Part shown: positions 1 to 14,315 of the stretch, in pieces
Numbering within the stretch: position 1 is the first letter of the stretch
Layout: each line of letters starts with the position of its first letter
DNA from: Candidatus Ruminimicrobiellum tauri
Lineage (GTDB): Bacteria; Elusimicrobiota; Endomicrobiia; Endomicrobiales; Endomicrobiaceae
Length of the DNA: 64,000 nt
Direction of reading: 5' to 3'
NCBI GenBank assembly: GCA_902792865.1
Contig: CADBBJ010000019.1
Span: 2,012 to 66,011, forward strand
Translations under genes and position numbers: made by a program
Notes under the pieces: model-generated
What the model saw: the letters and a program-made list of their open reading frames with translations, nothing else
What the model was told of the DNA's origin: nothing
Databases searched by the model: none

Positions 1-2
1 TA

Positions 3-1247
3 AAATCTGATAGCAAAAAGGAACAATATTTTTTTAATTTGAATAACGAATTTAGAAAAATTAGAAAATACCGTTTAAACGGCAATTGGAAAGAGTTCAC
101 GAAAGGGGAAAAAAATATTATTAATCTTTTGAAAAATTTTTATGATAATTATGCAGACTATTTAACAAAACTTGGTTTTAGTGAACAACAACTGCAAAAT
201 GTAGAAAAAATAATAGAAATTGATATATCGCTTTATAATGAGGATAAATATAATAATAAAGGCAAATATGGAAATATTATAAAAAAAAAGGATACAACAG
301 AAATAAATGCTAAGATTTTATCGGGAAAAAAAGAAGATAGTATTTATCTTATGACAGGAATGACAATTAATAAATCAAATAAATTAGTGGAAGATAACAT
401 CTGGAAGTTTGTTGAAAAGAGAAAAAAAGGAGATAATTTTAATCCTATTAGTTGGTATTACGATTCAAAAAATAAGAGTATTAAAAGGGATTCAAATTTA
501 AGTGAATTTTTTATATATATCCAAAACAATGGAACCATTCTTCAAAAAATAGCGGATGAAATTATTCCGATTGATGATACCAATATGCTTCAAAGATTTA
601 TATTGGGAGCATTAATGCAACAATTTATTCAAAATGTCAAGAAAAATAATAAGAATATCAAAAAAGTAGAAGACCCGTCAAAAAACCTATATAATAACTT
701 GACAAAAGAAAATATTAAAAGTTATTTCGGTAAAAAAGCATTTAAAAAAGTTTTTATGCAAATAATTGAAGCTGATAAGACTTTATTAGATTCCTTTTTT
801 GATTTTACAAAAGAATGTGAATTAATACAAACGGACAATAACAAGTTCAGTTTAAAGTTTAAAGGTTCGGGATTAATACTTGATTTAGAAACTGACGAAA
901 TGAACAAGATAAAAAATATCTTTAAAATTGAGGATTATTTTACATTTAAAGATAATAAATTAAATTTTAATGAAATTAAAATAAAAGAAACAAAAGAAAC
1001 AGATTATATAAATGTTATCCGTTATAAAGATACTGAGGTATTATCATTAAAAGGGAAAAATATTAGTATTGAAGATAACGAAAAAATAAAAAATGTTTAT
1101 TTGGATTTAGATAAAGGATGTATGGGGTATGATGATAAAAATGTTATACAAAAATTTTATAAAGATAATTATGAAGAATTAGAAAACTTTAAAACAGAAA
1201 ATGATATAGATTTAAATGATTTCTTTATTCATGTTAAGAAAAGTTAA
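3..1247 (+). CDS. 5'-partial paralog of the giant-protein family (conserved module B plus linker module L); probably continues upstream of the window
   Basis: The ORF track starts at a TTG at 39, but the frame is open back to nt 3. The residues before 39 (..QYFFNLNNEFRKIRKY) align with INYFNKFKKFRKNHTNYF in the 1268-4771 protein. Module B (SIYLMTGMTINKSNKLV...GTILQKIADEIIPIDD...FGKKAFKKVFMQIIEADKTLLDSFFDF) also occurs in the two larger ORFs. The C-terminus (KIKNVYLDLD...ENDIDLNDFFIHV) matches 10396-10550 of the giant ORF. Confidence 0.6.
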   Translation, partial: KSDSKKEQYFFNLNNEFRKIRKYRLNGNWKEFTKGEKNIINLLKNFYDNYADYLTKLGFSEQQLQNVEKIIEIDISLYNEDKYNNKGKYGNIIKKKDTTEINAKILSGKKEDSIYLMTGMTINKSNKLVEDNIWKFVEKRKKGDNFNPISWYYDSKNKSIKRDSNLSEFFIYIQNNGTILQKIADEIIPIDDTNMLQRFILGALMQQFIQNVKKNNKNIKKVEDPSKNLYNNLTKENIKSYFGKKAFKKVFMQIIEADKTLLDSFFDFTKECELIQTDNNKFSLKFKGSGLILDLETDEMNKIKNIFKIEDYFTFKDNKLNFNEIKIKETKETDYINVIRYKDTEVLSLKGKNISIEDNEKIKNVYLDLDKGCMGYDDKNVIQKFYKDNYEELENFKTENDIDLNDFFIHVKKS

Positions 1248-1267
1248 AGAAATATTTCTTTTCTAAT

Positions 1268-4200
1268 TTGGTTTCAATTCTTGCTGAAAGAAATTTGTAT
1301 GGTTTAAAAAAATTTCTTGATAGTAATGTTGTACATGCAGACTCCGGAAAGAGTGAGTTTTACTTCTATAAAAATTATTTTTTTAAACTTGAAAAAAATT
1401 TTTCTAAATTTCGTTTTACGGCACATGAATATGATGTTTATAATAAAATAAAAGAGAATGCAAATTTAAAGAATAATATCAACAAATATTATGGTTATTT
1501 TGATAAAGAAATTAATGGTGTAAAAAATAGAATTATTGTTAGCAAAAATTTACAAGAAGGCAAATTTATAGATTTATATGATTTTTTTTACAAGAAAAAC
1601 AAAAAGTTGTCAAAGGAAAAATGTGCCGATATCATAAAAAAAATAATTGCCATACAATCTGTTTTAAAAAACGAAAAAGGATTGTATAATTTTGATTTAA
1701 AACTACGAAACATAATGATAGATGAAGATCTTAATATAAAACTTATAGATTATGAGGGTATAGCACCTAAAGATAGTACCGTTTTTATGATCTCAGCTGA
1801 ATTACTTTTTAGCGAGATTTTCTTGGTGAATGAAGAGCTAAAATCTGATCTTTTAGATTATATACAATTTGATTTTATAATAAAATTGTTGAGTATGAAT
1901 GCTGGTACAAATATGAAAGAAGATGCTCGTAATTTATTATTGAGTCAGGGACAAAAGTTAGAAAGTCAAATAAACTACTTTAATAAATTTAAAAAATTTC
2001 GTAAAAATCATACTAACTATTTTAAACAAAACTTAGGTTTGAATGAAGCCTGGTTTGACAAAATAGAAAATATAATAAATACCGGTATAGAGCTTTCACA
2101 AAAAAGAAAATTTAATAACATTGTTTTAGTGGATGACAAAGAAAATAAAGAACTAAATAGTAAACTTTTACGAGAAAAATCTAATAGTATTTATATTATG
2201 AAAGATATTTTTATTAATGAACAAAATAAACTTGTGGAACGGGCTAATTATAAGTTTATTGAAAAGAGAAAAGAAGGAGATTATTTTAGATCAACAAGTT
2301 GGTATTATAATAGTGGTAGCTTTGCACTTAAATATGAGAGTAGTTTAGCAAACTTTATGTCAGAAATGCAGAAAAAAGGAACCGTTCTTCAAAAAATAGT
2401 AGATGAAGTTATTCCGATTGATGAGTCTAGTATATTTCAAAAAATTATATTGGGAACATTAATAGTAAAATTTATTAACACCGAAATAACAAAAGAAGGT
2501 TCATCTGTAAAATTTGAATCGTTATACAGTATATTGATTAAAGAGTCTAATATTGAACAATATTTCGGTAAAAAAGCATTTAAACAAGTTTTTATGCAAA
2601 TAATTGAAGCTGATAAGACTTTATTAGATTCCTTTTTTGATTTCAAAGAAGAATGTGAATTAATACAATTGGACAATGACAAATTTAAGTTAAAGTTTAA
2701 AGGTTCAAACTTAGAGCTTGATTTAGAAAAAGCAGAGGCAGACAATCTAATAAAGAAATTTCATCTTACCGAAGCAGATATACAAAAAAAATATACCAAC
2801 CCTGAAAGTGAAAACCAAAAGCCAAAGATTAATTCTAAAAACCCGATTGAAACAATAGCATTTAAACAAATAGGGGGAAATTATGAAAACTTCTTTGCAA
2901 TACAAATACCTGTTATAAGAGGTAAAGATAAAAAAATTCTAACGGATAAGAAAGGTAACAATATAAAACTTAAGTTAAATGTTGTTTATACAAAAGATAG
3001 TGGTGTTAGTTATCAGTTTATAGGGCAAAGTGAACAGATAGTAGAAACCTTGAAAAAAGAAGGTAAATTAACAGAAGATTTAAGCGAACTGAAATCGTTA
3101 GCAGATCTTTTATTTATAGACAGATATTGTACGGATAATATTGTAAGAGCAAAAATAGAAGGCGGAACAATTTTAACACAAGAACAAAAAAAGGCACTAT
3201 CCGATTATGTAAAAAGAGATAAAGACAATGAGTATTCTTATTTTAATGATAAGTTGATGGAAAAGGGAAGATATACATTTGCGGAAATAGAAGAGCTCTT
3301 GGCAGACACACCGAGCAGAACAAATACTTATGTGGGAGTAAAAGATGTAGAATTAAAGGTTACAAAAAATTTAGTGGAAGAGAATAAGATAGAACAAGAG
3401 ATACAAAGACTTAAAAGAGCGGGAATACACAAAGTGGTATTGTTAAAAGATAATATTTCTGATGAAGCATTGTGTTCAACGGTAATAAAAATAAGAAAAT
3501 TAGGATTACAACCGATAATAGGAATAACGGGAAATATGTTATCCGAAGAAAAGTCAACAGTTTATGATTTCATAGAAATAAGTAGCCGATTAAAGTCATT
3601 AGCAGGCTTTAGATTTATGGTTGATATAAATGATAATGTAAAAAATTTATTACAAGGAAAAGCCGACGATAAAGAGAGTATATTAGAATTAATTAAGAAA
3701 AGCGGAAAAGAAATATCCTATAAACCAAGTAATTTTGACAACCAGCAGGAGATGGAAAAAGCAGATAAATTATTTGAAGGAAAAGTTATATTTGTGGTAG
3801 AAGGGAAACAAATTATCAAAGACGAAACCGGAAAAGGAATAGAGTTCAAAAATGAAGATGTTTCCAATATTATTTCAAAGTTAGCGGGAGAAGGAAGATT
3901 TAGCTTATATTTTGATATGGATAAAGAAGATAATTTAAAGATGGCAAAGGAACTGGTAGAGAAAATATTCGGGAAAGGAGCGGAAGCAACTAAAACGATG
4001 ATATCGTTGGGAACAACATTTACGGCAAATATGTTTGCAGAATTATTTAAAAAGGATGCACCGACAAAATGTTTCAGTAATGCTTATGAACTGGGATATG
4101 GAACGGTATTTGGGGAAGTTTCACCGGAGAAAGTGGCAGGAGCATTCAAGGAATTGTTAACCGGTAGTATGACATATAGTAAGTTTAAGGAGTATATGGA

Positions 4201-4771
4201 CAAAAATAAAAATGAAGCTTTTACGGAGAACTTTAAAAATTTTGCTATAGGAGAAATAGAAGCCGAAATAAAAAAAGACGATAAACTTAAAGATGATGAC
4301 AAAACAGCAATGTTAAGACAGTATGTGATGGGATTTTTGATATCGTATATTGAAGATAAATTTAATGATTTTTATGAAACAAAAGGAGATATAAGACAAA
4401 TAGATATAAATGTAAAAAAACAAATAATGTATAGAATAATATGTTTATTACTGTCAGGTATTAATCCTACAACAATAAAGGTAAAGCTAAAGGAAGCTTT
4501 AAAGAAAAATACAAATAATCAATCACTGAAAGAATCAGTTAATAATACTAAAAAGAGTGATTTATTCGGCAAGATTTCAACAATGACGGCAAAATCGGAT
4601 AGTGTATTTGAGAGTGAGATGATTTATGCTAATGCAGATGCGGTTCCTGTAGATGTATACGACGATATAAATATATTGCTTGAAGACAGTTTAGTACCGA
4701 TAGCAGATATAGGTGAAACTGAAGAAGTTGATATGTTACAAGTTGTAAGGAGTATAGCTAAAAAGGCATAG
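1268..4771 (+). CDS. 1,167-aa giant-family paralog: protein-kinase-like domain plus conserved modules B, C and D of unknown function
   Basis: Long ORF collinear with the C-terminal ~1,300 aa of the 6267-14315 protein. Kinase-like motifs are FFKLEK, HEYDVYNKI, FDLKLRNIMID (D-x-K-x-x-N) and KLIDYEG. The frame is open from 1238, and the homologous sequence KKYFFSNLVSIL begins before the listed TTG, so the real start is uncertain. Confidence 0.8.
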   Translation: MVSILAERNLYGLKKFLDSNVVHADSGKSEFYFYKNYFFKLEKNFSKFRFTAHEYDVYNKIKENANLKNNINKYYGYFDKEINGVKNRIIVSKNLQEGKFIDLYDFFYKKNKKLSKEKCADIIKKIIAIQSVLKNEKGLYNFDLKLRNIMIDEDLNIKLIDYEGIAPKDSTVFMISAELLFSEIFLVNEELKSDLLDYIQFDFIIKLLSMNAGTNMKEDARNLLLSQGQKLESQINYFNKFKKFRKNHTNYFKQNLGLNEAWFDKIENIINTGIELSQKRKFNNIVLVDDKENKELNSKLLREKSNSIYIMKDIFINEQNKLVERANYKFIEKRKEGDYFRSTSWYYNSGSFALKYESSLANFMSEMQKKGTVLQKIVDEVIPIDESSIFQKIILGTLIVKFINTEITKEGSSVKFESLYSILIKESNIEQYFGKKAFKQVFMQIIEADKTLLDSFFDFKEECELIQLDNDKFKLKFKGSNLELDLEKAEADNLIKKFHLTEADIQKKYTNPESENQKPKINSKNPIETIAFKQIGGNYENFFAIQIPVIRGKDKKILTDKKGNNIKLKLNVVYTKDSGVSYQFIGQSEQIVETLKKEGKLTEDLSELKSLADLLFIDRYCTDNIVRAKIEGGTILTQEQKKALSDYVKRDKDNEYSYFNDKLMEKGRYTFAEIEELLADTPSRTNTYVGVKDVELKVTKNLVEENKIEQEIQRLKRAGIHKVVLLKDNISDEALCSTVIKIRKLGLQPIIGITGNMLSEEKSTVYDFIEISSRLKSLAGFRFMVDINDNVKNLLQGKADDKESILELIKKSGKEISYKPSNFDNQQEMEKADKLFEGKVIFVVEGKQIIKDETGKGIEFKNEDVSNIISKLAGEGRFSLYFDMDKEDNLKMAKELVEKIFGKGAEATKTMISLGTTFTANMFAELFKKDAPTKCFSNAYELGYGTVFGEVSPEKVAGAFKELLTGSMTYSKFKEYMDKNKNEAFTENFKNFAIGEIEAEIKKDDKLKDDDKTAMLRQYVMGFLISYIEDKFNDFYETKGDIRQIDINVKKQIMYRIICLLLSGINPTTIKVKLKEALKKNTNNQSLKESVNNTKKSDLFGKISTMTAKSDSVFESEMIYANADAVPVDVYDDINILLEDSLVPIADIGETEEVDMLQVVRSIAKKA

Positions 4772-4808
4772 TTTACATAAACGAAGCAAGGAACAAAAGA
4801 AATATGGC

Positions 4809-4846
4809 GGAGTGGGTACAACCAAACCCCTCCCCATATTTTTTTG
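4809..4846 (+). terminator. candidate rho-independent terminator after the 1,167-aa gene
   Basis: ggagtggg (4809-4816) pairs with cccctcc (4827-4833), with one bulged T and loop tacaaccaaa. A run of seven T (4839-4845) follows. Confidence 0.45.
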
Positions 4847-5177
4847 TCGTTTGTCATTGCCTTTGCCGTTCGTCATTCCGTGAAAATACGGAGTATTTTC
4901 GTGGCAATCCATCCGTTTTTGCCGTTGCCGTTGCCGTCTTTCCGTGGCAACTTGTTGCCGTGGCAATCCATAGCAAAATAAATCCGTTTTTCCTCTTTGT
5001 CGTTAAAGAACCCGGGCTTTTTCTTTTGAAGTGCGGTTTAGAGACGGCTTATGAGTGAACAATTTTTTAAACAAAAAACTACAAGAGCAAGTTTTTTCCT
5101 TATAGTAGTGATAAATAGTCTAAAAAACAAATAATTTGCTGTTCTGTCTTTTGTTTTTATTGTTGTTTTTTTATTTT

Positions 5178-5213
5178 CCATAGACTGCCACACCCTAACG
5201 GGTTCGCAGTGAC
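5178..5213 (+). repeat. P element copy 1 (ccatagactgccacaccctaacgggttcgcagtgac)
   Basis: Identical 36-mer found five times in the window, all in the same orientation. Confidence 0.95.
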
Positions 5214-5424
5214 AGCATTTATGTTACATAATTTTTTGTCATTCCCGAAAGCAGTAATCGGGAATCTATAGAAAAAACAAAAAATCCTATTTGTCATTCC
5301 CGCGGAGCAGTTGGGCGGCAATCCATAAAAAAAATAAATCCGTTTTCCTCTTTTTCGTCATTGCGAAAAAACACGAAGTGTTTTTGTGGCAATCCAGTCG
5401 TTGCCTTTGTTGTTGTTTATTATT

Positions 5425-5460
5425 CCATAGACTGCCACACCCTAACGGGTTCGCAGTGAC
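5425..5460 (+). repeat. P element copy 2
   Basis: Identical 36-mer. Confidence 0.95.
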
Positions 5461-5570
5461 ATCACATAGGAATGTTTTTTATCCGTTTTGTCTTTGTTGT
5501 TGTCGTTGTCGTTTGCCTTTGCCGTTTACCACTATATATTTAAAATTGTTTTTTGTATAATAATAGTATT

Positions 5571-6239
5571 ATGGGCAAAGGGTGTTTTTCTATAATTTCT
5601 GCAGTTTCCATAAAGCACAAGATACTGTCTTGTGTGTTGGCTTTTTTTGTTCTGATAAGTTCAACGAACTTGTTGAATTTTGAAGAATATAAAAAAACCA
5701 TTATGAAATCCGTAGAAGTATCAACAGAGTTAGTAGTAAGTCAGCTTTTTAATATATCTGCACTTCCTGTAAGTGCAATTTCAAAAATGTTTTTAGGTAC
5801 CCCTAAAATTACCGTAAAAAAAGAATGTACCCCGATACAGTTATCAAAAGAAACAACAACCGTAGAACAACAGACCGACAAAGCAAACGAAACGGTAGCA
5901 CCCGCAAATGAAACCGCAAACAATAAAGGAACCGATGCAAAAGATAATAATGTTATAAAAGCAACAATAGGATATTCAATGGTAGTCGATATATCGGACA
6001 TGAGAAAAGTTATAAAAAGTGAAGGAATAAAAGATTTGTTTGTTGCAGACAAACTGTTGGAAATAAATTTTTCTTTATGTAAAAAAGTAATAAGTGTTAT
6101 GTTTATAATGATGTTATTATTAGCAATATTACTTGCAAGAAAGAATGTAGGCAACAATAATATTATAAATAACAATAAAATAAAATATAAAAGATTAACT
6201 CAGCTTATTTTATGTAAGTTGGGTTATTTTTGTGTATAA
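5571..6239 (+). CDS. hypothetical small membrane protein directly upstream of the giant gene
   Basis: ORF track 5553..6239; the first ATG is at 5571. It has an N-terminal hydrophobic segment (ILSCVLAFFVLISS) and a C-terminal one (VISVMFIMMLLLAILLA), with a T/N/A-rich low-complexity middle. I recognise no family. Confidence 0.45.
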   Translation: MGKGCFSIISAVSIKHKILSCVLAFFVLISSTNLLNFEEYKKTIMKSVEVSTELVVSQLFNISALPVSAISKMFLGTPKITVKKECTPIQLSKETTTVEQQTDKANETVAPANETANNKGTDAKDNNVIKATIGYSMVVDISDMRKVIKSEGIKDLFVADKLLEINFSLCKKVISVMFIMMLLLAILLARKNVGNNNIINNNKIKYKRLTQLILCKLGYFCV

Positions 6240-6266
6240 AAGCACAAAATCAAGGGGAATGAATGC

Positions 6267-9200
6267 ATGAATATGTGTAAAAACATATTTAACATGTTAG
6301 TGAAAAAAGAAACACTAAATCAATCATATTTAAAATTAAAAGATTGGCTGTTATCATTTAATTTGGTAAAGATAACAGCGGTAATAGTATTGAATTGTTT
6401 CTTGCTGACGGCAGTATACGGACAAGCGGTGGTAGGAGTATTGGAGAACCAAAGAGCAACGGAACAATTCAAACAAATATTTGAGGATTTTGATGTTCTG
6501 TACAATTACGGAAAAATATCATCAGCCAAATATAAGGGAAGTGATAAGGTAGTTATAAACATACAGGATTTGCATAACAATGCGGAAGTACAAAAGAATA
6601 TAAACAACATAATATCATTGTTTGACGAAAAGTACGGGGTAAATAACATATATTTGGTAGGAGCTTACGGACAGGTAAGTACAAAGTGGTTAACGGCACC
6701 CAAAGATAAAAAAATAAGAGAAAAAGTAATAGAAACATTATTGGAATCCGGGAAATTAACCGGAGCGGAATATTATTCTGCAGTGAAGAATAAAACGGAG
6801 ATAATAAAAGGGTTAGAAAAGAAAGAAGAATATTTTGACAACTTAAAAAGGTTTGAAAGTATAATAGAAAATTCGCCCGTAATAACAATGCATATAGAAG
6901 CAATAAAAGAAACGGTAAAGAAATTGCAGTCAAAATATTATAATAAGCAACAAAAAGAAATAGAAAAATTATCCCAAAAATATGAATTAGAGCAAATATC
7001 GGCAGACGAATATTTTGAAAAGATGGAAAAATATGCAAAAAATTATGCAATGAATATAGACAAATATAAAAATCTGTCCGGGTATATGGATTTAATGGAC
7101 AGAAAGAAAAATCTTGATTATGAAAAGATAAACAAAGAATTGCAGACTTTTGTAGCGACATTAAAAGAAAGAATACCGTACAATGTATATAAAGCATTGA
7201 CAGATGCGACAAAAAACTTTTTGGAGATAGACAAATTGTACGGCTATATAATAAGGTTATCCAAACAATACAATTTGGAGTTATCGGGTAATTTCAAAGA
7301 GTTAGAAAGATTTTTTGAATATATAGAGTTAAGCCAGACAATAAATCCGTTTGAATTAATGAAAGAAAAACAAAATTTTAAAGACGAACTAAACGACAAA
7401 TTTTCGGTAAACAAGGTAGAACAGGAAGTAATATTTTTAAGTAATTTTGTGGGATATTATGAAGATTATTTAACAGGGAAAATAACAGCCCCGAATTACG
7501 AATATTATAAATCCAACATAGAAAAATTTAAATATATATGGATAAAATACATAGATAACAGAGAAATAGTAGCATTAGAGAAGTACGAAAAGATATCGGA
7601 TGAATTCTATAAAATAAACATAGCGAGAAACAAGTATTTTATAGAAAATATGAAAGAAGTAATGGATGCAAAGAAACTGGGAGTGGAAGTAAAAGGAAAA
7701 GATGAAATACAAAAGAGCATGAACTCGTTAAAGAAATCCAAAGAGATATACATAACGGTAACGGGAGGCTTTCATACCCAAGAGATGTCTAAAATGTTAT
7801 CCAAAGCAGGGATAACAAACATAATAATAACCCCTAGTGTAACAACGGATACAAAAGAATCGGACGAGATACATTATAATTTAGCCAAAGAGCAGGCAAA
7901 AATAGCATTTCAGACATTGGCAACATTGCCACCATCACAGCAGGAAGTTCAAGAAAGAGTAAAAGAATTTTTGAGTGCTATACAAACAGCGGGATTACAA
8001 GATATAAAAGCAGAAGATTTGCAAGAAATCATTGATGAAGTTCTTGACCGAATAAATGTTGATCGTCGGAAAAATAATGAGGCTAATGTATCGGTAACCA
8101 TAAATTCCGTTACCGGTGCAGAAGTAACGGTAGGTGATAAAACTTATGAAGTTAAAGCTGATAACAACCAACAGAAAGTTAATAAAGAAAACAACTTATA
8201 CAAATCAAAAAGTGTATTAGGTTTAATGAAAGTGTCAATAGCAATGTCAATACTAACTTTGATGCTTATACCGATATCAGGTGTAACAGGAAGTTTTCCT
8301 ATAGTACCGATAATATTATTTGGTCTGTCATTTGGAAAAGACGGATTTGAATGGAAACAGTATTCTTTATTGAACGAAGGTGCACAAAAGATAAGTTCTG
8401 ATGCAGAAATAAAAAGTAACATAGCAGAATCTCAAAGTGCATTCTCTGACGATAACGATTCAAAAGAACTAAAAAACAGGATAAATAAAAAATTTGCGGA
8501 TTTAGGATTTGAAGAGAGCAATATAAAAAATATAGAGATAGGTGATTTTACCGAAAAAAATGAAATGAAAAAGGATGAATTTGCCAATGTTGATGTTCGT
8601 AAGCAAAGATTAAAAACAGGTTTTTTACATATCAATTACAGATTAATACAAAAAATATTTATGGACGGGACAAACTTTAAAAATGATATTTGGAACGATG
8701 TATATTTTTCAATGTTTATAGCCCATGAATTAAGACATAGAAATCATCCGAGATGGCATGAAGTTGCAGTAAGTTTTTTTGATATATTTTATTTTATAAC
8801 GGTATTTGTAAGAGAGTTAAAAAAAAGGATAAGAGAGTTAATAAAAAGAATGTTTGTTAAAAAAGAAGAAAAAGAAGTAGAAGAAATAATCGCAAAAGAA
8901 TTAAAGGAATGGCAGTCTTCACTAAAGAACTTAAAACAAAAATATAACTCAAAATCAATAAATGATAACGGAGAAATAAAAGACAATGACTTGAAAGTAG
9001 CAACGGAAAGAAAAACAGTCCGTTCCAATGCAATGCAAGCCGGCAGTTTACAAAATACATTAGCAGTTAGTAATGCTCAATCTGCAAACAAGACTAACAA
9101 CAATGAAAAAGAAGTAAAACCTGTAATAATTGAAACTAATCCTTTGACTGAAACAATAATAGATGAATTTGATAATAAAAAGATAGTAAGTTCCAAATAT

Positions 9201-12200
9201 GAACAGAACGAAAATGGGATGAGAAATATTATAATTTATTTTAAAGACGGTGATGTAGAGAAGAGTGTTAAACTTTTAACCAAAGACCAAAATCTAATAA
9301 AACCTGAAGATAATACGAATATATCGGTGGCTGATTGGATAATTAGTAAAACAGCATATTTAGAAACAAAAATTAATTTTAATTCCGACCGAACAGATAT
9401 AATAAATTATAAAAAAGAATTGACTTCACTTAACGGTGCAAAAATATCGGGTATTGAATATGATAAAAATAATAATAGAATTATAATTTATCATAGAAAA
9501 GAAAAGTCTCATATCAAAATGGCTTACTTCTCTCTTTTTAAAGCTCTTACATCCGAACAAAAATCAAATTTGGAAAGTCTTAATAACAGTGATAATATAA
9601 TCGGAAATAATTTGGTTGATTGGATACATAAAAATAAAGATATTTATGGAATAAGGATAGAAGAGAACGGTATACGAAGTTTAACGGAATTGGCAGAACT
9701 TGTCGGAGATGCAAAAATAAAAAATATTGAATGTTATAGAGAAGACAAAACCAAGAAAATTAAGATTGAGATTTCTTATGTTAAAGAACAAGACGGACTG
9801 CCACAAGTTGTTATTTTTTACGGTCCCACGGATAAAGAAGGCAAGGAATTTGAAAAATTGAAAAAATATAATGTAGATTTACCTAAAAAGCCTGATATAG
9901 GCAGACCGATAGTTTCTTGGATACTCGGTAACCGAAAATCTTTAAAAATAGATATAGAAAAGATAGATGAAATTCGGATAACAGGTAAAAATAAACTTGA
10001 TAGTTTTATTAATCTTAGCGGAAAGTCAAATATAGAAGGTATAGAATATTATCAGGATAATAATGAGAAAAAGATTATAGCTTATTACAAAGAAAAAAAT
10101 ACTGCAACCGGAAATAAACGGATAAAAGGTGTTGTTTTTTCTGTTTCCAAAGATCTTACGGCAGAACAAAAAGCAAAATTGTATACGGAAACAAAAAATA
10201 TAAATTCGTTAAGTGATTTGATAACAAATATCATGATAAATTATGGAATAAAATTAAAAAAACAATTGAAAATAAACCGACATGGACAAATTTTTACATT
10301 TAAAAACAATAAGGTAAACAAAACAAATTATGATATTTCTTATCAAAATATTAAGTTGTTATCAATAAAAGATAACAAAATTACTATTGAAAATCCCGAT
10401 AAAATAAAAAATGTTTATTTAAATTTAGAAACCGAAGATATGGCATATTATTATGATGATAGAATACAGGATTTTTATAACAAGAATTCAAAATCTTTAA
10501 AAAATTTTATAACAGAGAACGATATTGATACAACCGATTTTTTCATTAGAGTTGCATTAAATAAGGCGATTTTAGATTTTGTAAATGAGGATATAGAAAA
10601 TGTGATTGTATTATCTGACAAAAATAAAGGAAAACTAAAGGAATATTTCTTTTCTAATTTGATTTCTATACTTGATAAAGGAAATACAAATAATTTTATA
10701 AAGAATTTTAGTAAGATTGATTATAAACAACAAAAGTTAAGAAATCCGTTTTATACCTACAATAATTATTTTTTTAAATTCAGCAATAATATAAAAGAAT
10801 TCAGGCTTTTAAAAAATGAATATGATTTTTATAATAAAATAAAAGGAGATAAAGAATTAAATAAAAAAACAGGAAAAAATATTAATGAATATTATGGTTG
10901 TTTTGATAAAGAAATTAATAATAAAAAATATAAATTTGTTGTTAGTAAAAATTTAACAAAAGATAACAGATTTGAGAGTTTAGATAAATCTGTTAAGAAT
11001 AATAATTTTACAAAGAAACAATGTACTGAAATTATAAAACAAGTATTAAAAATACACTCTGATTTAGAAGAAAAGGGATTGTACAATTATGATTTAAACC
11101 CGCAAAGCATAATGATAGATAAAGATCTTAACATAAAACTTATAGATTGTGATGGTATTGTACCCAAAGACTGTACCGGTTTTGTATCTTCATATATATT
11201 ACCTTATGATTATTTCTTGGCGGATGAAAATCTTCGTTCCTATTGGTATGATTATGTAAAATTTACTTTTGTGGTAAATGTTTTTTTTGATATAAAAAAT
11301 CTTGATAAACAGATGGCAACAGACTTCAAAAGACTGCAATACATAATTGACTATATGGAAAAAAATAAAAATAAATTTGCAAGACGAAAAAACAGAAGAA
11401 CATTGGCTCGGTATGGTCGGTATCTTAGAATATTTAGTGAAATTTCCGATAAATATGCTAACTTTTTTGAACAATTTAAGCTTGATAAAACCCGTTTAGA
11501 TAAAATAAAAGATATAGTAAAAACAAGTGTAACTCTTTTTCTGCATCCGGATGAGAGTTATAACAAAATTTCTATATTGGAACTACAAGAAATAGACAGT
11601 AATCTTTTAATGGAAAAAGAAAAAGATTCTGTTTATGTAATCAAAAATATTGTTATTGATAAATCAAATAAATTAGTGAGAGTATATAACGATAAATTTA
11701 TTAAAAAAAGAGAAAAAGGAGATTGGGTTAAACCGGATAGTTGGTATTATAATTTAGATTCAAAAAAGATTGTATTCTATCCGATTTTATATAAATTTAC
11801 GGAATATGTACAGAAGTATGGAACCATTCTTCAAAAAATAGTAGACGAATCTATTCCGATTGATGATACTGATATATTTCAAAAATTAGTATTGGGAACA
11901 TTAATAAAAAATTTTATTGATGAAAATACGGATAGCAATATTAAAGATGACAACAAACAAAATGAATTTTTATACAAAAAATTGAAGACCGCCGGTAATA
12001 TTAAAAAATATTTCGGTAAAGATGCATTTAAAAAAGTTTTTATGCAAATAATAGAAGCAGATTCGGAATTATTAAAATCCTTTTTTAATTTCAACGAAGA
12101 ATGTAAGTTAATAAAAGACAAAAAGGATGATAAAAAATTTTATCTGAATTTTAGTTCAGGATTAAAACTTGAGTTAAGTAACAAAGATTTGAATAAAATA

Positions 12201-14315
12201 ACAGATAAATTTCCTAAAGTTAAAGTAGATGAAATTCCCAAAGAAAAAGAAAATATACCGCCATCTCCGCCGAAATCAGTAAAAACAGAGAAACAAATTA
12301 AAACAGATTCTCATAAAGTTGAAGATAAATACATGAAAGTATATCAAAAGATAAAATTCGTTAGTCCTATTGAAAATATTAAGTTTAGTCAGATAAGCGA
12401 AAATTATCAAAAACTGTTTGCAATACAAATACCTGTTGTAAGAGATAAATACGGTAAAATTCTTACGGATGATAAAAACAACAAGATAAAACTTAAATTA
12501 AATGTTGTTTATACAAAGGAAAACGGTATTAGCTATTATTTTACAGGGCAAAGTGAAGGAACGGTAAAACAATTAATAAGGAACGGTAAACTATCGGAAG
12601 ATTTAAAAGAACTGAAACCGTTAGTTGATCTTTTGTTTATAGACAGATATTCTGCGGATAAGAATTTAAGAGAAGAAATAGAAAACAAAAATCTTTTATG
12701 GAAAGAACAGATAAAAGCACTGTCTGATTATGCAAAAAAAGATGAAGATATGAATTATTATGAGTTTAAATGTAAGTTGATAGGACAGGGTTACACATTT
12801 ACCGAAATAGAACAAATATTGTCAGATATTCCCGGCAGAACAAATACTTATGTCGGATTAAAGGATGTAGAATTAAAACTCACAAATCAGTTATTGGATG
12901 AGAGTAAGATAATAAGAGAGATACAAAGACTTAAAAGAGCAGGAATACACAAAGTGGTATTGCTGAAAGATAAAGATGTTTCAAATAAAGAGTTGTATAT
13001 AATAATAGAAATAATAAGAAAATCAGGTTTACAGCCGATAATAGGATTGACAAGAGAAATGTTGTCCGTTAGTGCGGATGAAAAGTCAAAAGTCTATGAC
13101 TTTATAGAAGAAAGTATAAAAATTAAAGCATTATCAGGATTTAGATTTATGTTTGATATTGACGAAAAAGTGGGTAAACTTTTAAATTATAAAAAAGATA
13201 TTTATGAAATGATTAGCATATTGGATTTAATAATGAATATCGGGAAAGAAATATCTTATAAGCCAAGTAATTTTAATAATGAAAAAATAGATATTGCAGA
13301 TGAATTATTTAAAGGAAAAGTTATATATGTAGTAGCCGGAAAACAGTTTACAAGAAATAACGAAGAAGATTTGGTTATCAATAGAACTGAAGAAAATTCT
13401 CTTAAGAAATTAGCGGGAGAAGGAAGACTTAGTTTATATTTTGATATTGATAAAGATAATTTAAAGGTAGCGAAAGCACTGATAGAGAGAATATTTGGAA
13501 AAGGAACGGATGCAATCAAAACGATGATATCGTTGGGAACAACATTTACGGCAAATATGTTTGCAGGATTATTTAAAAAAGATTCTGCATCAAAGGGTTT
13601 TAGTAATGCTTATGAAATCGGATATGAACCGATATTTGGGGATATTTCCCCGGATATAGTTGCAGTAGTATTCAAGGATGTATTAACCGATAATATGAAC
13701 TTTAATGAGTTTTTAGAGTATGAACAAAGAGAGAAAGAACAAAAATCTAAAAAAACTATAGCTTTTACAAAAGAATTTGATAAACTTGTTATTGAAGATA
13801 TAAAAGAAGTAAGCAAATATAATATTTCAGAGAAAGAACAAACAGCAATGTTAAAGCAATATGTAATAGGATTTTTAATGTCATATATTGAAACTCATTT
13901 TGATGAGTTGTATGAAGTAAAACGATCGGATAAAATGATAGATATAAAACAAATGGATATAAATGTAAGGAATCAAATAATGTATAGGATATTACTTTTA
14001 TTACTGAAAGAGATGATTTTTAACAATATAAAACAATATGTAAGTATTAAAGATAGTCAAAAAGAAGGTTCAATGAAACAATCGGTTAATAATATCAAAA
14101 ATAACGAGTTATCCGTAAATATTTCAAAAATGTTAATGAAAACAAATATAAATATTAATAGTGTGCTTAAAAACAATATAGATACGATAGCTATATGTAA
14201 TGATATAAATGTGTTACTTGAATACAGTTTATTACCGGTAACTACAAACGAATTATCAAAAACAGGAAATTTAATAAAAGATATTAAAAATATAGTAAGA
14301 AAAGCATCTTATTAA
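6267..14315 (+). CDS. 2,682-aa giant multidomain membrane-anchored protein (possible ChaN/Tiki-like domain, TM pair, HExxH, ~105-aa repeats, degenerate kinase-like domain, modules B/C/D)
   Basis: Uninterrupted 8,049-nt ORF preceded by aagggga. It has an N-terminal hydrophobic anchor (ITAVIVLNCFLLTAVYG) and an HELRH motif at 8724-8738. The kinase-like motif is YDLNPQSIMID...KLIDCDG at 11088-11156. The C-terminal half is collinear with ORFs 3-1247 plus 1268-4771. Confidence 0.9.
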   Translation: MNMCKNIFNMLVKKETLNQSYLKLKDWLLSFNLVKITAVIVLNCFLLTAVYGQAVVGVLENQRATEQFKQIFEDFDVLYNYGKISSAKYKGSDKVVINIQDLHNNAEVQKNINNIISLFDEKYGVNNIYLVGAYGQVSTKWLTAPKDKKIREKVIETLLESGKLTGAEYYSAVKNKTEIIKGLEKKEEYFDNLKRFESIIENSPVITMHIEAIKETVKKLQSKYYNKQQKEIEKLSQKYELEQISADEYFEKMEKYAKNYAMNIDKYKNLSGYMDLMDRKKNLDYEKINKELQTFVATLKERIPYNVYKALTDATKNFLEIDKLYGYIIRLSKQYNLELSGNFKELERFFEYIELSQTINPFELMKEKQNFKDELNDKFSVNKVEQEVIFLSNFVGYYEDYLTGKITAPNYEYYKSNIEKFKYIWIKYIDNREIVALEKYEKISDEFYKINIARNKYFIENMKEVMDAKKLGVEVKGKDEIQKSMNSLKKSKEIYITVTGGFHTQEMSKMLSKAGITNIIITPSVTTDTKESDEIHYNLAKEQAKIAFQTLATLPPSQQEVQERVKEFLSAIQTAGLQDIKAEDLQEIIDEVLDRINVDRRKNNEANVSVTINSVTGAEVTVGDKTYEVKADNNQQKVNKENNLYKSKSVLGLMKVSIAMSILTLMLIPISGVTGSFPIVPIILFGLSFGKDGFEWKQYSLLNEGAQKISSDAEIKSNIAESQSAFSDDNDSKELKNRINKKFADLGFEESNIKNIEIGDFTEKNEMKKDEFANVDVRKQRLKTGFLHINYRLIQKIFMDGTNFKNDIWNDVYFSMFIAHELRHRNHPRWHEVAVSFFDIFYFITVFVRELKKRIRELIKRMFVKKEEKEVEEIIAKELKEWQSSLKNLKQKYNSKSINDNGEIKDNDLKVATERKTVRSNAMQAGSLQNTLAVSNAQSANKTNNNEKEVKPVIIETNPLTETIIDEFDNKKIVSSKYEQNENGMRNIIIYFKDGDVEKSVKLLTKDQNLIKPEDNTNISVADWIISKTAYLETKINFNSDRTDIINYKKELTSLNGAKISGIEYDKNNNRIIIYHRKEKSHIKMAYFSLFKALTSEQKSNLESLNNSDNIIGNNLVDWIHKNKDIYGIRIEENGIRSLTELAELVGDAKIKNIECYREDKTKKIKIEISYVKEQDGLPQVVIFYGPTDKEGKEFEKLKKYNVDLPKKPDIGRPIVSWILGNRKSLKIDIEKIDEIRITGKNKLDSFINLSGKSNIEGIEYYQDNNEKKIIAYYKEKNTATGNKRIKGVVFSVSKDLTAEQKAKLYTETKNINSLSDLITNIMINYGIKLKKQLKINRHGQIFTFKNNKVNKTNYDISYQNIKLLSIKDNKITIENPDKIKNVYLNLETEDMAYYYDDRIQDFYNKNSKSLKNFITENDIDTTDFFIRVALNKAILDFVNEDIENVIVLSDKNKGKLKEYFFSNLISILDKGNTNNFIKNFSKIDYKQQKLRNPFYTYNNYFFKFSNNIKEFRLLKNEYDFYNKIKGDKELNKKTGKNINEYYGCFDKEINNKKYKFVVSKNLTKDNRFESLDKSVKNNNFTKKQCTEIIKQVLKIHSDLEEKGLYNYDLNPQSIMIDKDLNIKLIDCDGIVPKDCTGFVSSYILPYDYFLADENLRSYWYDYVKFTFVVNVFFDIKNLDKQMATDFKRLQYIIDYMEKNKNKFARRKNRRTLARYGRYLRIFSEISDKYANFFEQFKLDKTRLDKIKDIVKTSVTLFLHPDESYNKISILELQEIDSNLLMEKEKDSVYVIKNIVIDKSNKLVRVYNDKFIKKREKGDWVKPDSWYYNLDSKKIVFYPILYKFTEYVQKYGTILQKIVDESIPIDDTDIFQKLVLGTLIKNFIDENTDSNIKDDNKQNEFLYKKLKTAGNIKKYFGKDAFKKVFMQIIEADSELLKSFFNFNEECKLIKDKKDDKKFYLNFSSGLKLELSNKDLNKITDKFPKVKVDEIPKEKENIPPSPPKSVKTEKQIKTDSHKVEDKYMKVYQKIKFVSPIENIKFSQISENYQKLFAIQIPVVRDKYGKILTDDKNNKIKLKLNVVYTKENGISYYFTGQSEGTVKQLIRNGKLSEDLKELKPLVDLLFIDRYSADKNLREEIENKNLLWKEQIKALSDYAKKDEDMNYYEFKCKLIGQGYTFTEIEQILSDIPGRTNTYVGLKDVELKLTNQLLDESKIIREIQRLKRAGIHKVVLLKDKDVSNKELYIIIEIIRKSGLQPIIGLTREMLSVSADEKSKVYDFIEESIKIKALSGFRFMFDIDEKVGKLLNYKKDIYEMISILDLIMNIGKEISYKPSNFNNEKIDIADELFKGKVIYVVAGKQFTRNNEEDLVINRTEENSLKKLAGEGRLSLYFDIDKDNLKVAKALIERIFGKGTDAIKTMISLGTTFTANMFAGLFKKDSASKGFSNAYEIGYEPIFGDISPDIVAVVFKDVLTDNMNFNEFLEYEQREKEQKSKKTIAFTKEFDKLVIEDIKEVSKYNISEKEQTAMLKQYVIGFLMSYIETHFDELYEVKRSDKMIDIKQMDINVRNQIMYRILLLLLKEMIFNNIKQYVSIKDSQKEGSMKQSVNNIKNNELSVNISKMLMKTNININSVLKNNIDTIAICNDINVLLEYSLLPVTTNELSKTGNLIKDIKNIVRKASY

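What the first reader, a model, noticed from the sequence alone, without database searches (positions are those of the whole stretch)
3..4771. Tandem paralog array: the C-terminal half of the giant protein is repeated immediately upstream
ORFs 3-1247 and 1268-4771 together are collinear with about aa 1330-2682 of the 6267-14315 protein (L-K-B-C-D order). The left ORF starts with an additional B module, and its frame is open to the window edge. The locus therefore appears to read ...(K?)-B-L | K-B-C-D | small TM protein | N-TM-HExxH-R-L-K-B-C-D.

Amino-acid identity is patchy: high in motif cores and low elsewhere. This is typical of a diversifying multigene family. More copies may lie upstream of the window.
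Basis: seen in the sequence. Interest (0 to 1): 0.7.

Follow-up and report, generated by a model that had tools for sequence, protein, structure and literature searches.

The report
Two adjacent giant multi-kinase paralog genes
The two left-hand ORFs are the tail of a second, larger giant membrane-protein gene lying next to its 2682-residue paralog in an uncultured rumen Elusimicrobium, apparently cut in two by an assembly error; both genes belong to a very rare, unannotated family built from kinase-like and TIM-barrel modules.

Summary
ORF 1268-4771 aligns end to end with residues 1446-2680 of the 6267-14315 protein (46% identity, 892 bits; shuffled controls reach at most 24 bits). ORF 3-1247 carries an extra B module followed by an L module.

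The interpretation needs correcting:
- **One gene, not two.** The two ORFs are separated only by a 67-nt deletion at window 1227-1236. Five other public assemblies of this locus (99.6-100% identical in the blocks aligned) show that junction intact twice, and otherwise with -5, +8 or +8 nt. This looks like scaffolding damage at the edge of an internal repeat.
- **A full second giant gene.** It spans at least 10.8 kb (at least 3600 residues) and reads TM hairpin, R' repeats, L-K-B, L-K-B, C-D. It is not a half copy.
- **Old duplication.** Module copies are 40-55% identical to each other, so they diverged long ago.

Module identities: K is a protein-kinase fold, C is a TIM-barrel-like domain and D is a helical bundle. 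L, B, C and D match no Pfam family. Only 44 relatives turned up among 1.84 billion representative proteins. Function is inferred only: a membrane-anchored, probably cytoplasm-facing, multi-kinase scaffold or enzyme.

The parts
1..4771 (+). 3' 4.8 kb of the upstream giant gene 'UP'. The whole gene is at least 10.8 kb and continues left of the window.
   Evidence: L001, L084/L087, L088, L089 and L090 are 99.6-100% identical to the window in the blocks aligned. L001, L087, L088 and L090 extend it leftwards. tblastn module map.
3..143 (+). End of kinase-like module K1. Most of K1 lies left of the window.
   Evidence: In the composite protein the window begins at '...YDYIKFCFIADMLCNIKSDSKKEQYFF', which is the C-lobe of K1.
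144..923 (+). B1 module. Its fold is unassigned and it has no Pfam family.
   Evidence: 43% identity to G B and 48% to ORF2 B. No consistent Pfam hit.
939..1235 (+). L2 module.
   Evidence: 46-50% identity to G L.
1227..1236 (+). Break between 'ORF1' and 'ORF2'. Here 67 nt that are present in L087 and L088 are missing from the window, which shifts the frame.
   Evidence: Junction length between fixed anchors is 117 nt in L087 and L088 (in frame), 112 in L001, 125 in L089 and L090 (two different 8-nt duplications) and 50 in the window.
1238..1975 (+). K2 module, a protein-kinase-like domain. Lys40 is at 1385, Glu54 at 1427, Asp143 at 1694, Asn148 at 1709 and Asp161 at 1748.
   Evidence: Pfam Pkinase E 7.3e-7 at 29.3 bits, below the 31.7-bit cut-off. 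Motifs in alignment A3; residue positions. The kinase fold was shown for the paralogous G module.
1976..2779 (+). B2 module.
   Evidence: tblastn against G B: 43% identity, E 4e-55.
2840..3940 (+). C module: an N-terminal beta/helical subdomain followed by a (beta/alpha)8 TIM-barrel-like domain.
   Evidence: 59% identity to G C. AF2 model with pLDDT 84.6 and pTM 0.84. Foldseek returns only generic TIM barrels.
3941..4771 (+). D module: a helical bundle with a conserved C-terminal helix, followed by the stop codon.
   Evidence: 44% identity to G D. AF2 secondary structure. The C-D cassette lies at the C-terminus of the C-D proteins examined.
4772..5550 (.). Intergenic spacer with GC-richer dispersed short repeats (...GTGGCAATCCAT...). 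It differs in length and content between assemblies.
5571..6239 (+). Small 222-aa protein with an N-terminal and a C-terminal hydrophobic segment, conserved between the two giant genes.
   Evidence: Called at the same place in L084, L085, L086 and L087. Hydropathy scan.
6267..14315 (+). Giant paralog G (2682 aa). Head 6267-8186; TM hairpin and HExxH 8187-8966 (HELRH at 8724-8738); R repeats 9084-10256; L 10269-10601; K 10602-11366; B 11367-12236; C 12354-13466; D 13467-14312.
   Evidence: Seven of the eight members of its 90% cluster are full-length at 2682 aa; the eighth (P0057) is 1067 aa. The head is conserved across Endomicrobiales.

Best explanation
**Anatomy (shown)**
- Window 1-14315 holds two adjacent, same-strand, anciently diverged paralogous giant genes of an uncultured rumen Elusimicrobium in or near Endomicrobiaceae. 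A small two-TM gene sits between them.
- The left gene (UP) is at least 3600 aa. It reads: TM hairpin, then R' repeats (about 1700 aa), then L-K-B, L-K-B, C-D.
- The right gene (G) is 2682 aa. It reads: a head of about 600 aa conserved across Endomicrobiales, then TM hairpin, HExxH, TM, R repeats, L-K-B, C-D.
- 'ORF 3-1247' and 'ORF 1268-4771' are one reading frame of UP.

**The ORF1/ORF2 split (inferred)**
- The frame is interrupted by a 67-nt deletion that is most likely a short-read scaffolding artefact at the edge of the intragenic L-K repeat.

**How the array arose (inferred)**
- Whole-gene duplication and unequal recombination between cassettes. The roughly 650-aa L-K-B unit behaves as a copy-number-variable cassette.
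- C-D is a fixed C-terminal cassette that also occurs behind unrelated N-termini.

**Module identities (shown by modelling)**
- K is a Hanks-type protein-kinase fold.
  - In UP, both K copies keep the beta3 Lys, alphaC Glu, catalytic Asp, Asn and DFG-position Asp.
  - They lack a Gly-rich loop and have an activation segment of only about 8 residues.
  - The K copy of G has lost the catalytic-loop Lys and Asn, so it is probably a pseudokinase.
- C is a TIM-barrel-like domain and D is a helical bundle. L and B are unassigned.

**Function (inferred, low confidence)**
- With the basic N-terminus inside the cell and 1 + 2 + 1 TM helices, everything after G residue about 852 faces the cytoplasm.
- I therefore read these as inner-membrane-anchored cytoplasmic scaffolds. 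They would carry one or two ATP-dependent phosphotransferase modules plus a TIM-barrel enzyme or binding module, coupled to a periplasmic head and a membrane-proximal HExxH site.
For: **Paralogy and module order**
-.

**One gene rather than two**
- The ORF2 frame and its homology to G continue upstream of the ORF1 stop codon.
- L087 and L088 carry the intact 117-nt junction. There the stretch is called as single genes of 1820 and 2063 aa.
- Adding back 5 nt to L001 gives an uninterrupted 2408-aa frame.

**Signature of an assembly artefact**
- Across six assemblies of the locus there are five different junction-2 states: -67, -5, +8 (TTCATGTT duplicated), +8 (TTTCTTTA duplicated) and intact in two.
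- Junction 1 shows the same behaviour (intact, +15 duplication, -51, -55), and so does a third site (26, 25 or 33 nt).
- Meanwhile the flanking kilobases are 99.6-100% identical.
- The paralogous G gene is full-length in 7 of the 8 cluster members.
- Fragmentation of repeat-rich giant genes in short-read assemblies is documented (bioRxiv 10.1101/2023.11.21.568195).

**Extent of UP**
- L087 positions 1-10805 are open in frames 1, 2, 1 and 3. The sequence begins inside hydrophobic TM segments.

**Kinase fold**
- Pfam Pkinase hits 10 of 11 K-bearing members below threshold.
- The AF2 model has pLDDT 82.8. Foldseek gives 874 PDB hits at E <= 1e-3; the 50 listed are all protein kinases.
- Motifs are visible in alignment A3.

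**C-D fold**
-.

**Rarity and lineage**
- 44 hits among 1.84e9 representative proteins.
- PheS is 92% identical to rumen Elusimicrobia MAGs.
- One homolog (P0005) is from Ca. Ruminimicrobium bovinum.
- The head has 33 homologs; every one that carries a source name is from Endomicrobium, Endomicrobia, Endomicrobiaceae, Endomicrobiales or Elusimicrobia.

**TM segments**
-.
Against: - No reads were available, so the junction indels cannot be proven to be artefacts. Four of the six assemblies are out of frame at junction 2.
- L087 has a further frame change near 2249-2301 that no other assembly covers. Real decay of UP, or population heterogeneity, is therefore not excluded.
- The UP N-terminus was not reached.
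- Topology rests on a hydropathy scan and the positive-inside rule only.
- Kinase activity is untested. The missing Gly-rich loop and very short activation segment are atypical for protein kinases and could mean a small-molecule substrate or no catalysis.
- The TIM-barrel matches are generic (TM about 0.5 on the target, about 10% identity) and identify no active site.
- Nothing is known about L and B.
Confidence: 0.7

Rival explanations
1. One reading: ORF 3-1247 and ORF 1268-4771 are separate, partial family members. Together with the giant gene they would form a tandem array of truncated paralogs in a diversifying multigene family.
For: - In the window as given, a stop at 1245-1247 and a frame change separate them.
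- Gene callers report a 1167-aa product in three assemblies: the window's own contig, L089 and L090.
Against: - Homology to G runs through the break in the other frame.
- Two assemblies have the junction in frame.
- The breaks differ in every disrupted assembly.
- The ORF2 'start' is a TTG inside a conserved motif that is internal in all homologs.
- There is no separate N-terminus, promoter-sized spacer or TM anchor for ORF2.
Confidence: 0.08
2. UP is a real gene in decay, that is, a pseudogene. The frameshifts are genuine, arose independently in different strains, and reflect relaxed selection after duplication.
For: - Every assembly has at least one frame disruption somewhere in UP.
- G, by contrast, is full-length in 7 of 8 cluster members.
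Against: - The ratio of indels to substitutions is implausible for decay. L001 and the window have 0 substitutions in about 5.1 kb but differ by two indels at a single site.
- All disruptions that can be compared between assemblies sit at repeat edges, and several are short tandem duplications typical of unmerged contig overlaps.
- There are no in-frame stop codons anywhere in 10.8 kb.
- The catalytic motifs of K1 and K2 are intact, whereas those of the uninterrupted G are the degenerate ones.
Confidence: 0.12
3. The L-K junction is a genuinely hypervariable or phase-variable site that switches expression of the C-terminal K-B-C-D part on and off.
For: The same few bases vary in six assemblies, and an equivalent site varies at the other L-K junction.
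Against: - There is no simple-sequence repeat, inverted repeat or recombinase site at the position.
- The variants are heterogeneous (-67, -5 and two different +8 duplications) rather than unit-length changes.
- A third, unrelated site within the R' region behaves the same way.
Confidence: 0.05
4. The resemblance is compositional, between K/N/I-rich low-complexity sequences in an AT-rich genome.
For: The region is 23-29% GC and the proteins are rich in Lys, Asn and Ile.
Against: - 892 bits against at most 24 bits for shuffles.
- BLASTP used composition-adjusted statistics.
- The conserved blocks are ordered, and the models fold with high confidence.
Confidence: 0.01

Closest known systems
Hanks-type (eukaryotic-like) Ser/Thr protein kinases, Pfam PF00069
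   Same: - The K module has the bilobal kinase fold. All 50 listed Foldseek hits are protein kinases (TNIK, PAK1, ROCK and, at rank 39, PknB).
- The family consensus keeps FFK (beta3 Lys), NEY (alphaC Glu), a canonical D-L-K-P-E-N catalytic loop and an Asp at the DFG position.
   Different: - Scores fall below the Pfam gathering cut-off.
- There is no GxGxxG loop, and DFG is replaced by DYE.
- Only about 8 residues separate the DFG position from the 'VPKD' stretch, so the activation segment is very short.
- The domain is embedded one to two times per polypeptide in a giant membrane protein.
- The copy in G has lost the catalytic-loop Lys and Asn.
Giant repeat-rich bacterial genes recovered from metagenomes (e.g. 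Omnitrophota giant genes, West-Roberts et al., bioRxiv 10.1101/2023.11.21.568195)
   Same: - Very long ORFs with N-terminal TM anchoring and internally repeated cassettes.
- Routinely fragmented or truncated at contig ends in short-read assemblies.
   Different: - Much smaller here (2.7 to at least 3.6 kaa, against more than 30 kaa).
- A different phylum and a different domain repertoire. No shared domains were detected.
Metazoan giant proteins with two kinase domains (obscurin/UNC-89, titin family)
   Same: Architectural analogy only: repeat arrays plus one or two kinase or pseudokinase domains near the C-terminus (abstracts listed).
   Different: No homology beyond the kinase fold. These are bacterial and membrane-anchored, and they have no Ig or Fn3 repeats.
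TIM-barrel enzymes (GH20/GH84 hexosaminidases, KDO8P synthase, type I dehydroquinase)
   Same: - The C module is predicted as a (beta/alpha)8 barrel.
- GH20 and GH84 also share the layout of N-terminal domain, barrel and C-terminal helical bundle.
   Different: - Only generic fold-level matches: TM 0.25 on the query, about 0.5 on small targets, 8-13% identity.
- No catalytic signature was identified and there is no Pfam hit.
Endomicrobiales 'head' proteins (unnamed; hypothetical proteins of Endomicrobium, Endomicrobiaceae and Elusimicrobia MAGs)
   Same: - G residues 1 to about 600 are 32-65% identical to 33 proteins.
- The longer ones keep an HExxH at about residue 776-909, mostly 787-816.
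   Different: None of the retrieved relatives carries R, L, K, B, C or D modules after the head. Most of them are truncated, however. The tail seen here appears specific to the rumen lineage.

Membership tests
Protein kinase domain (Pfam PF00069, Hanks-type ePK) | Score at or above the Pfam gathering threshold (31.7 bits) | tested here: not met
   ORF2 scores 29.3 bits (E 7.3e-7) and the G L-K-B segment 21.2 bits. Ten of 11 K-bearing members hit Pkinase, with a best E-value of 3.4e-7.
Protein kinase domain (Pfam PF00069, Hanks-type ePK) | Bilobal protein-kinase fold | tested here: met
   The AF2 model of G L-K-B has pLDDT 82.8. Foldseek against the PDB gives 874 hits at E <= 1e-3; the 50 listed are all protein kinases, with TM about 0.45-0.53 on the target.
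Protein kinase domain (Pfam PF00069, Hanks-type ePK) | Catalytic residues: beta3 Lys, alphaC Glu, HRD-position Asp with downstream Lys and Asn, and DFG Asp | tested here: met
   Present in UP K1 (YDLKPEN, IDYEG) and in K2/ORF2 (K40, E54, D143, N148, D161). In the K of G the loop is YDLNPQS, so the Lys and Asn are lost and that copy does not meet the feature.
Protein kinase domain (Pfam PF00069, Hanks-type ePK) | Gly-rich (GxGxxG) nucleotide loop and an activation segment ending in APE | tested here: not met
   No GxGxxG lies upstream of the FFK motif. Only about 8 residues separate 'DYEG' from 'VPKD' (alignment A3).
Polymorphic toxin systems (Zhang et al. 2012, PMC3482391) | Conserved N-terminal trafficking part with a hypervariable C-terminal toxin domain, followed by an immunity gene | tested here: not met
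   Here the C-terminal C-D cassette is the best conserved part between paralogs (C is 59% identical) and is invariant among the six full-length G alleles that differ from the window copy. Variation lies in the N-terminal 520 aa. No toxin domain was detected.
Class III/IV lanthionine synthetases (LanKC/LanL, NCBIfam NF038151/NF038150) | Full-length match above the curated cut-off (575 and 650 bits) | tested here: not met
   Only 21.4 and 16.4 bits, confined to about 50 residues of the kinase catalytic loop.
GH20/GH84 glycoside hydrolases | Specific structural superposition and a catalytic acid pair on the barrel | tested here: inconclusive
   The best hit, 5a6j (GH20), has E 1.7e-5 but TM 0.25 and rmsd 22 A. 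Other TIM barrels score equally well, and catalytic residues were not assessed.
   UP and G are two separate genes with their own TM anchors, 46% identical over K-B-C-D. ORF1 and ORF2 do not count as separate members.

The most novel reading that the evidence does not exclude
These would be founding members of an undescribed class of giant, membrane-anchored multi-kinase proteins restricted to rumen Endomicrobiaceae. That lineage is suspected of living with rumen ciliates (PMC11257099).

In this reading, an Endomicrobiales-wide head anchors an expandable array of eukaryote-like kinase cassettes (L-K-B) and a mobile C-terminal TIM-barrel/helical cassette. The whole would act on, or be delivered to, the eukaryotic host. 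The bilobed hydrophobic hairpins and the conserved C-terminal helix would serve as membrane-insertion or export determinants, analogous to chlamydial Inc proteins or type IV effector signals.
Probability: 0.12. Interest if true: 0.75.

Novelty: new variant of a known kind. Interest (0 to 1): 0.42.

Why it matters
- **Annotation.** An apparent two-ORF 'partial paralog' is really one giant gene broken by assembly. The same locus is broken differently in every public assembly, so automatic annotations (products of 1167, 1205, 1820 and 2063 aa) all misdescribe it.
- **New domains.** The work defines four uncatalogued modules (L, B, C, D) and an atypical kinase module with confident structural models. 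The family has only about 44 representatives in 1.84 billion proteins.
- **Host association.** If the rumen Endomicrobiaceae are protist-associated, giant proteins carrying eukaryote-like kinase cassettes are obvious candidates for host interaction.
- **Limits.** The duplication itself is ordinary gene-family evolution, and no function has been demonstrated.

Tried and rejected
- **First exhaustive profile search failed.** The 2-sequence alignment gave more than 1200 profile positions. I repeated it with a 3-row alignment.
- **Collection scans found no relatives.** Pattern scans of GTDB genome contigs and JGI metagenome contigs with the K-B alignment returned nothing. The family is seen mainly in ENA assemblies, with a few NCBI, JGI and Logan records.
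- **Family libraries gave nothing for L, B, C or D.**
  - I searched Pfam, NCBIfam and PHROGs.
  - The isolated weak hits (UBA_6, Cyanate_lyase, KNTase_C, DUF1890 in single members) were dismissed as chance.
- **PDB sequence search.** Only marginal kinase hits for ORF2 (E >= 0.024), and nothing meaningful for the G head.
- **Tandem Repeats Finder.** No nucleotide-level arrays; the cassettes are too diverged.
- **dN/dS per module (Nei-Gojobori).**
  - dN was 0.26-0.45 and dS 0.44-0.71, giving ratios of about 0.4 (C) to about 1.0 (B).
  - I do not trust this, because strong AT bias at third positions deflates dS at this divergence.
- **Programmed -1 frameshift at the A-run near 1236-1243.** Considered and rejected: there is no slippery heptamer, and the other assemblies show a 67-nt deletion rather than a 1-nt slip.
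- **Phage or mobile-element origin.** Considered and rejected: the flanks are core chromosomal genes (recO, infC, rpmI, rplT, trkH, pheST) and are conserved in other assemblies.
- **Context of a distant C-D homolog (L083).** It showed only unannotated large genes and an FtsH-like ATPase, which was not informative.
- **B-module fold.** Not searched on its own, because models cannot be cropped and kinase hits dominate the L-K-B search.
Full report

Yes.
- ORF2 (window 1268-4771, 1167 aa) aligns in one piece with residues 1446-2680 of the 2682-aa protein G encoded at 6267-14315. The alignment has 46% identity, 64% positives, 892 bits and E = 0.
- ORF1 (frame open from base 3 to the stop at 1245-1247) has two homologous blocks.
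- Residues 48-307 match G 1728-1982 (43%, E 2e-48) and ORF2 236-494 (48%, E 2e-66).
  - Residues 313-411 match G 1343-1429 (46%). This is 'L'.
- The order (K tail)-B-L | K-B-C-D is therefore as described.
- Identity per 40 columns ranges from 0.15 to 0.78.
- No further copies exist in the remaining 50 kb of the window.

**2. ORF1 and ORF2 are one gene**

Reading the DNA at 1140-1400 shows that the ORF2 frame is open back to 1238. It encodes 'EKLKKYFFSNLVSIL', which matches G 'GKLKEYFFSNLISIL'. Homology therefore continues across the ORF1 stop, but in another frame.

Public assemblies of the same locus were recovered by exact protein look-up: L001, L084/L087, L088, L089 and L090. In the blocks aligned they are 99.6-100% identical to the window.

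Between fixed anchors, the junction has these lengths:

| Assembly | Length | State |
|---|---|---|
| L087, L088 | 117 nt | in frame, encoding ...DFFIHVALNKAILDFIDKHGTELTSAEQKEKLKKYFF... |
| L001 | 112 nt | ATTCA missing |
| L089 | 125 nt | TTCATGTT duplicated |
| L090 | 125 nt | TTTCTTTA duplicated |
| window | 50 nt | 67 nt missing |

Two other sites behave the same way:
- The equivalent upstream L-K junction is 90 nt intact in L090. It is +15 (a duplication) in L088, -51 in L001 and -55 in L087.
- A third site is 26, 25 or 33 nt long.

L001 and the window have no substitutions at all in about 5.1 kb, yet they differ by two indels at this one spot.

The features below are what mis-joined contig ends look like:
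- The indels are private to each assembly.
- The comparable ones sit at the edges of intragenic repeats.
- Several are short tandem duplications, or the loss of a short unique stretch flanked by repeated sequence.

The same problem is described for other giant repeat-rich genes (bioRxiv 10.1101/2023.11.21.568195). I therefore treat the split as an artefact with about 75-80% confidence. Real decay or real hypervariability cannot be excluded without reads.

**3. What lies to the left**

- Repairing L001 with the 5 nt present in the window gives an uninterrupted 2408-aa frame.
- L087 is the first 20.8 kb of ERZ1061328 scaffold_622. It extends the gene to its contig start.
  - Positions 1-10805 are open in frames 1, 2, 1 and 3, with no in-frame stops apart from the frame switches.
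  - The first residues are two hydrophobic segments joined by a Gly/Ser-rich linker. About 1700 aa of a repeat type (R') unrelated to the R repeats of G follow.
- The module map reads: UP = TM hairpin, R'n, L, K, B, L, K, B, C, D, at least 3600 aa in all. So the window shows the last 4.8 kb of a second giant gene, not a half copy. The true N-terminus was not reached.

**4. Relationships of the copies**

- All L, K and B copies (two in UP, one in G, and those in P0002-P0005) are 40-62% identical to one another.
- The exception is UP K1/B1 against P0002 (78% and 70%), which is an ortholog from a related strain.
- The internal L-K-B duplication is thus about as old as the UP/G split.
- In P0002 the B module is followed by G-type R repeats instead of another L-K-B. 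P0004 reads R-L-K-B-L, and P0005 reads B-x-L-K-B. Cassettes have evidently been reshuffled.
- The C-D cassette is always C-terminal in the proteins examined. It also occurs behind unrelated N-termini (P0012, P0019, P0026, P0016).
- Crude Nei-Gojobori values gave dN 0.26-0.45 and dS 0.44-0.71. C is the most constrained module. These values are unreliable in this AT-rich, highly diverged pair.
- Among strain alleles of G the K-B-C-D part is almost invariant. Two alleles carry 83-93 substitutions, all but one within residues 1-520. This does not fit a 'diversifying' C-terminal family.

**5. What the modules are**

- *K.*
  - Pfam Pkinase is the only recurring hit. It is sub-threshold: 29.3 bits for ORF2 against a 31.7-bit cut-off, in 10 of 11 K-bearing members.
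  - An AF2 model of G L-K-B has pLDDT 82.8 and pTM 0.80. It gave 874 PDB matches at E <= 1e-3, and the 50 listed are all protein kinases.
  - Alignment A3 shows FFK (beta3 Lys), NEY (alphaC Glu), YNYDLKPEN and IDYEG.
  - ORF2 keeps K40, E54, D143, N148 and D161.
  - G has YDLNPQS, which has lost the Lys and Asn.
  - There is no Gly-rich loop, and the activation segment is about 8 residues long.
- *C-D.*
  - An AF2 model of ORF2 residues 520-1167, built with a 26-sequence alignment, has pLDDT 84.6 and pTM 0.84. It shows a beta/helical subdomain, a (beta/alpha)8 barrel and a helical bundle.
  - Foldseek finds only generic TIM barrels: GH20, KDO8P synthase, dehydroquinase and the enolase superfamily. 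TM is about 0.5 on small targets and identity about 10%.
- *L and B.* These have no detectable relatives outside the family.
- *G head.*
  - Residues 1 to about 600 have 33 homologs. Every one with a source name comes from Endomicrobium, Endomicrobia, Endomicrobiaceae, Endomicrobiales or Elusimicrobia.
  - Most are partial. Long ones carry an HExxH at about residue 776-909, mostly 787-816. None carries the tail seen here.

**6. Organism and rarity**

- The flanking genes are core chromosomal: recO, infC, rpmI, rplT, trkH/A, pheST, lysC, leuA.
- PheS is 92% identical to sheep and cattle rumen Elusimicrobia MAGs and 61-64% identical to Endomicrobium and Endomicrobiellum MAGs.
- One family member (P0005) comes from Ca. 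Ruminimicrobium bovinum. This rumen clade has been suggested to associate with ciliates (PMC11257099).
- An exhaustive HMMER search of the K-B-C-D profile against 1.84 billion representative proteins found 44 hits at E <= 1e-3, and 30 at E <= 1e-10.

**7. How it most likely works**

- *Shown:* two tandem giant paralogs; cassette architecture; a kinase fold with intact catalytic residues in UP; a TIM-barrel/helical C-terminal cassette; hydrophobic segments in G at residues 33-55, 649-690 and 833-851, and at the known start of UP.
- *Inferred:*
  - With a Lys-rich N-terminus inside the cell and 1 + 2 + 1 TM helices, the head (56-648) and the HExxH (820) face the periplasm. Everything from about 852 onward faces the cytoplasm, where a kinase has ATP.
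  - I therefore favour an inner-membrane-anchored cytoplasmic scaffold or enzyme with one (G, possibly a pseudokinase) or two (UP) phosphotransferase modules.
  - A host-directed effector role is a more speculative alternative.
  - The array arose by gene duplication and unequal recombination between cassettes.

**8. Verdict**

- The tandem duplication itself is ordinary.
- The useful results are the correction (one giant gene, probably broken by assembly) and the definition of a very rare, unannotated family with an atypical repeated kinase cassette.

Noticed in passing
window 6267-7830 (G residues 1-520): Strain alleles of G are mosaic. P0056 and P0059 differ from the window copy by 83 and 93 residues, and all but one of these lie within residues 1-520. 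P0047 differs only in the first roughly 35 residues. This suggests allelic recombination or diversifying pressure on the predicted periplasmic head, not on the kinase tail.
   Followed up: partly
window 4772-5550: The spacer between the two giant genes is GC-richer (about 34%). It is built from dispersed short repeats (...TTCGTCATTCCGTGAAAATACGGAGTATTTTCGTGGCAATCCAT..., a 58-nt pair at 5160 and 5407). These produce spurious Cys/Arg-rich ORFs. The spacer differs in length and order between assemblies (window against L084, L085 and L086). The same repeats recur just downstream of G in L085 and L086.
   Followed up: partly
window 8724-8738 (G residues 820-824) with 8211-8336 and 8763-8819: An HELRH motif lies between a 42-residue bilobed hydrophobic segment and another TM helix. 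An HExxH at about residue 776-909 (mostly 787-816) recurs in the longer Endomicrobiales head homologs. This hints at a membrane-proximal zinc site or protease. No peptidase family was matched.
   Followed up: partly
C-termini of C-D proteins (window 4700-4768, 14240-14312; P0012, P0016, P0019, P0022, P0023, P0026, P0033): The proteins end in a conserved amphipathic helix, preceded by an acidic patch, and finish in small residues (...ILAAA, ...LSAA, ...LKAA, ...KKA). The helix has low confidence in the model. It could be a docking or export signal, or a degron.
   Followed up: no
tail of the hit list (P0037, P0039, P0041): The nearest kinases outside the family are ordinary eukaryote-style Ser/Thr kinases (E 1e-6 to 1e-3). 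P0039 and P0041 each have two kinase domains. Their source organisms are unknown, and an origin of K by transfer from a eukaryote was not tested.
   Followed up: no
L083 (ERZ913622 scaffold_9470) 950-13727: A distant C-D homolog (P0026) is followed by a run of large unannotated genes (498, 1340, 256, 145 and over 440 aa) and an FtsH-like AAA+/M41 protease that apparently lacks its N-terminal TM region.
   Followed up: partly
window 27112-30051: A 979-aa protein has an OmpA-family domain only at residues 798-893. The first roughly 800 residues are unannotated.
   Followed up: no
L087 3992-4037 against L001 and L088: A 45-nt in-frame tandem duplication in the R' region is present in L087 and absent from L001 and L088. 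It is a further assembly-specific length difference inside UP.
   Followed up: partly
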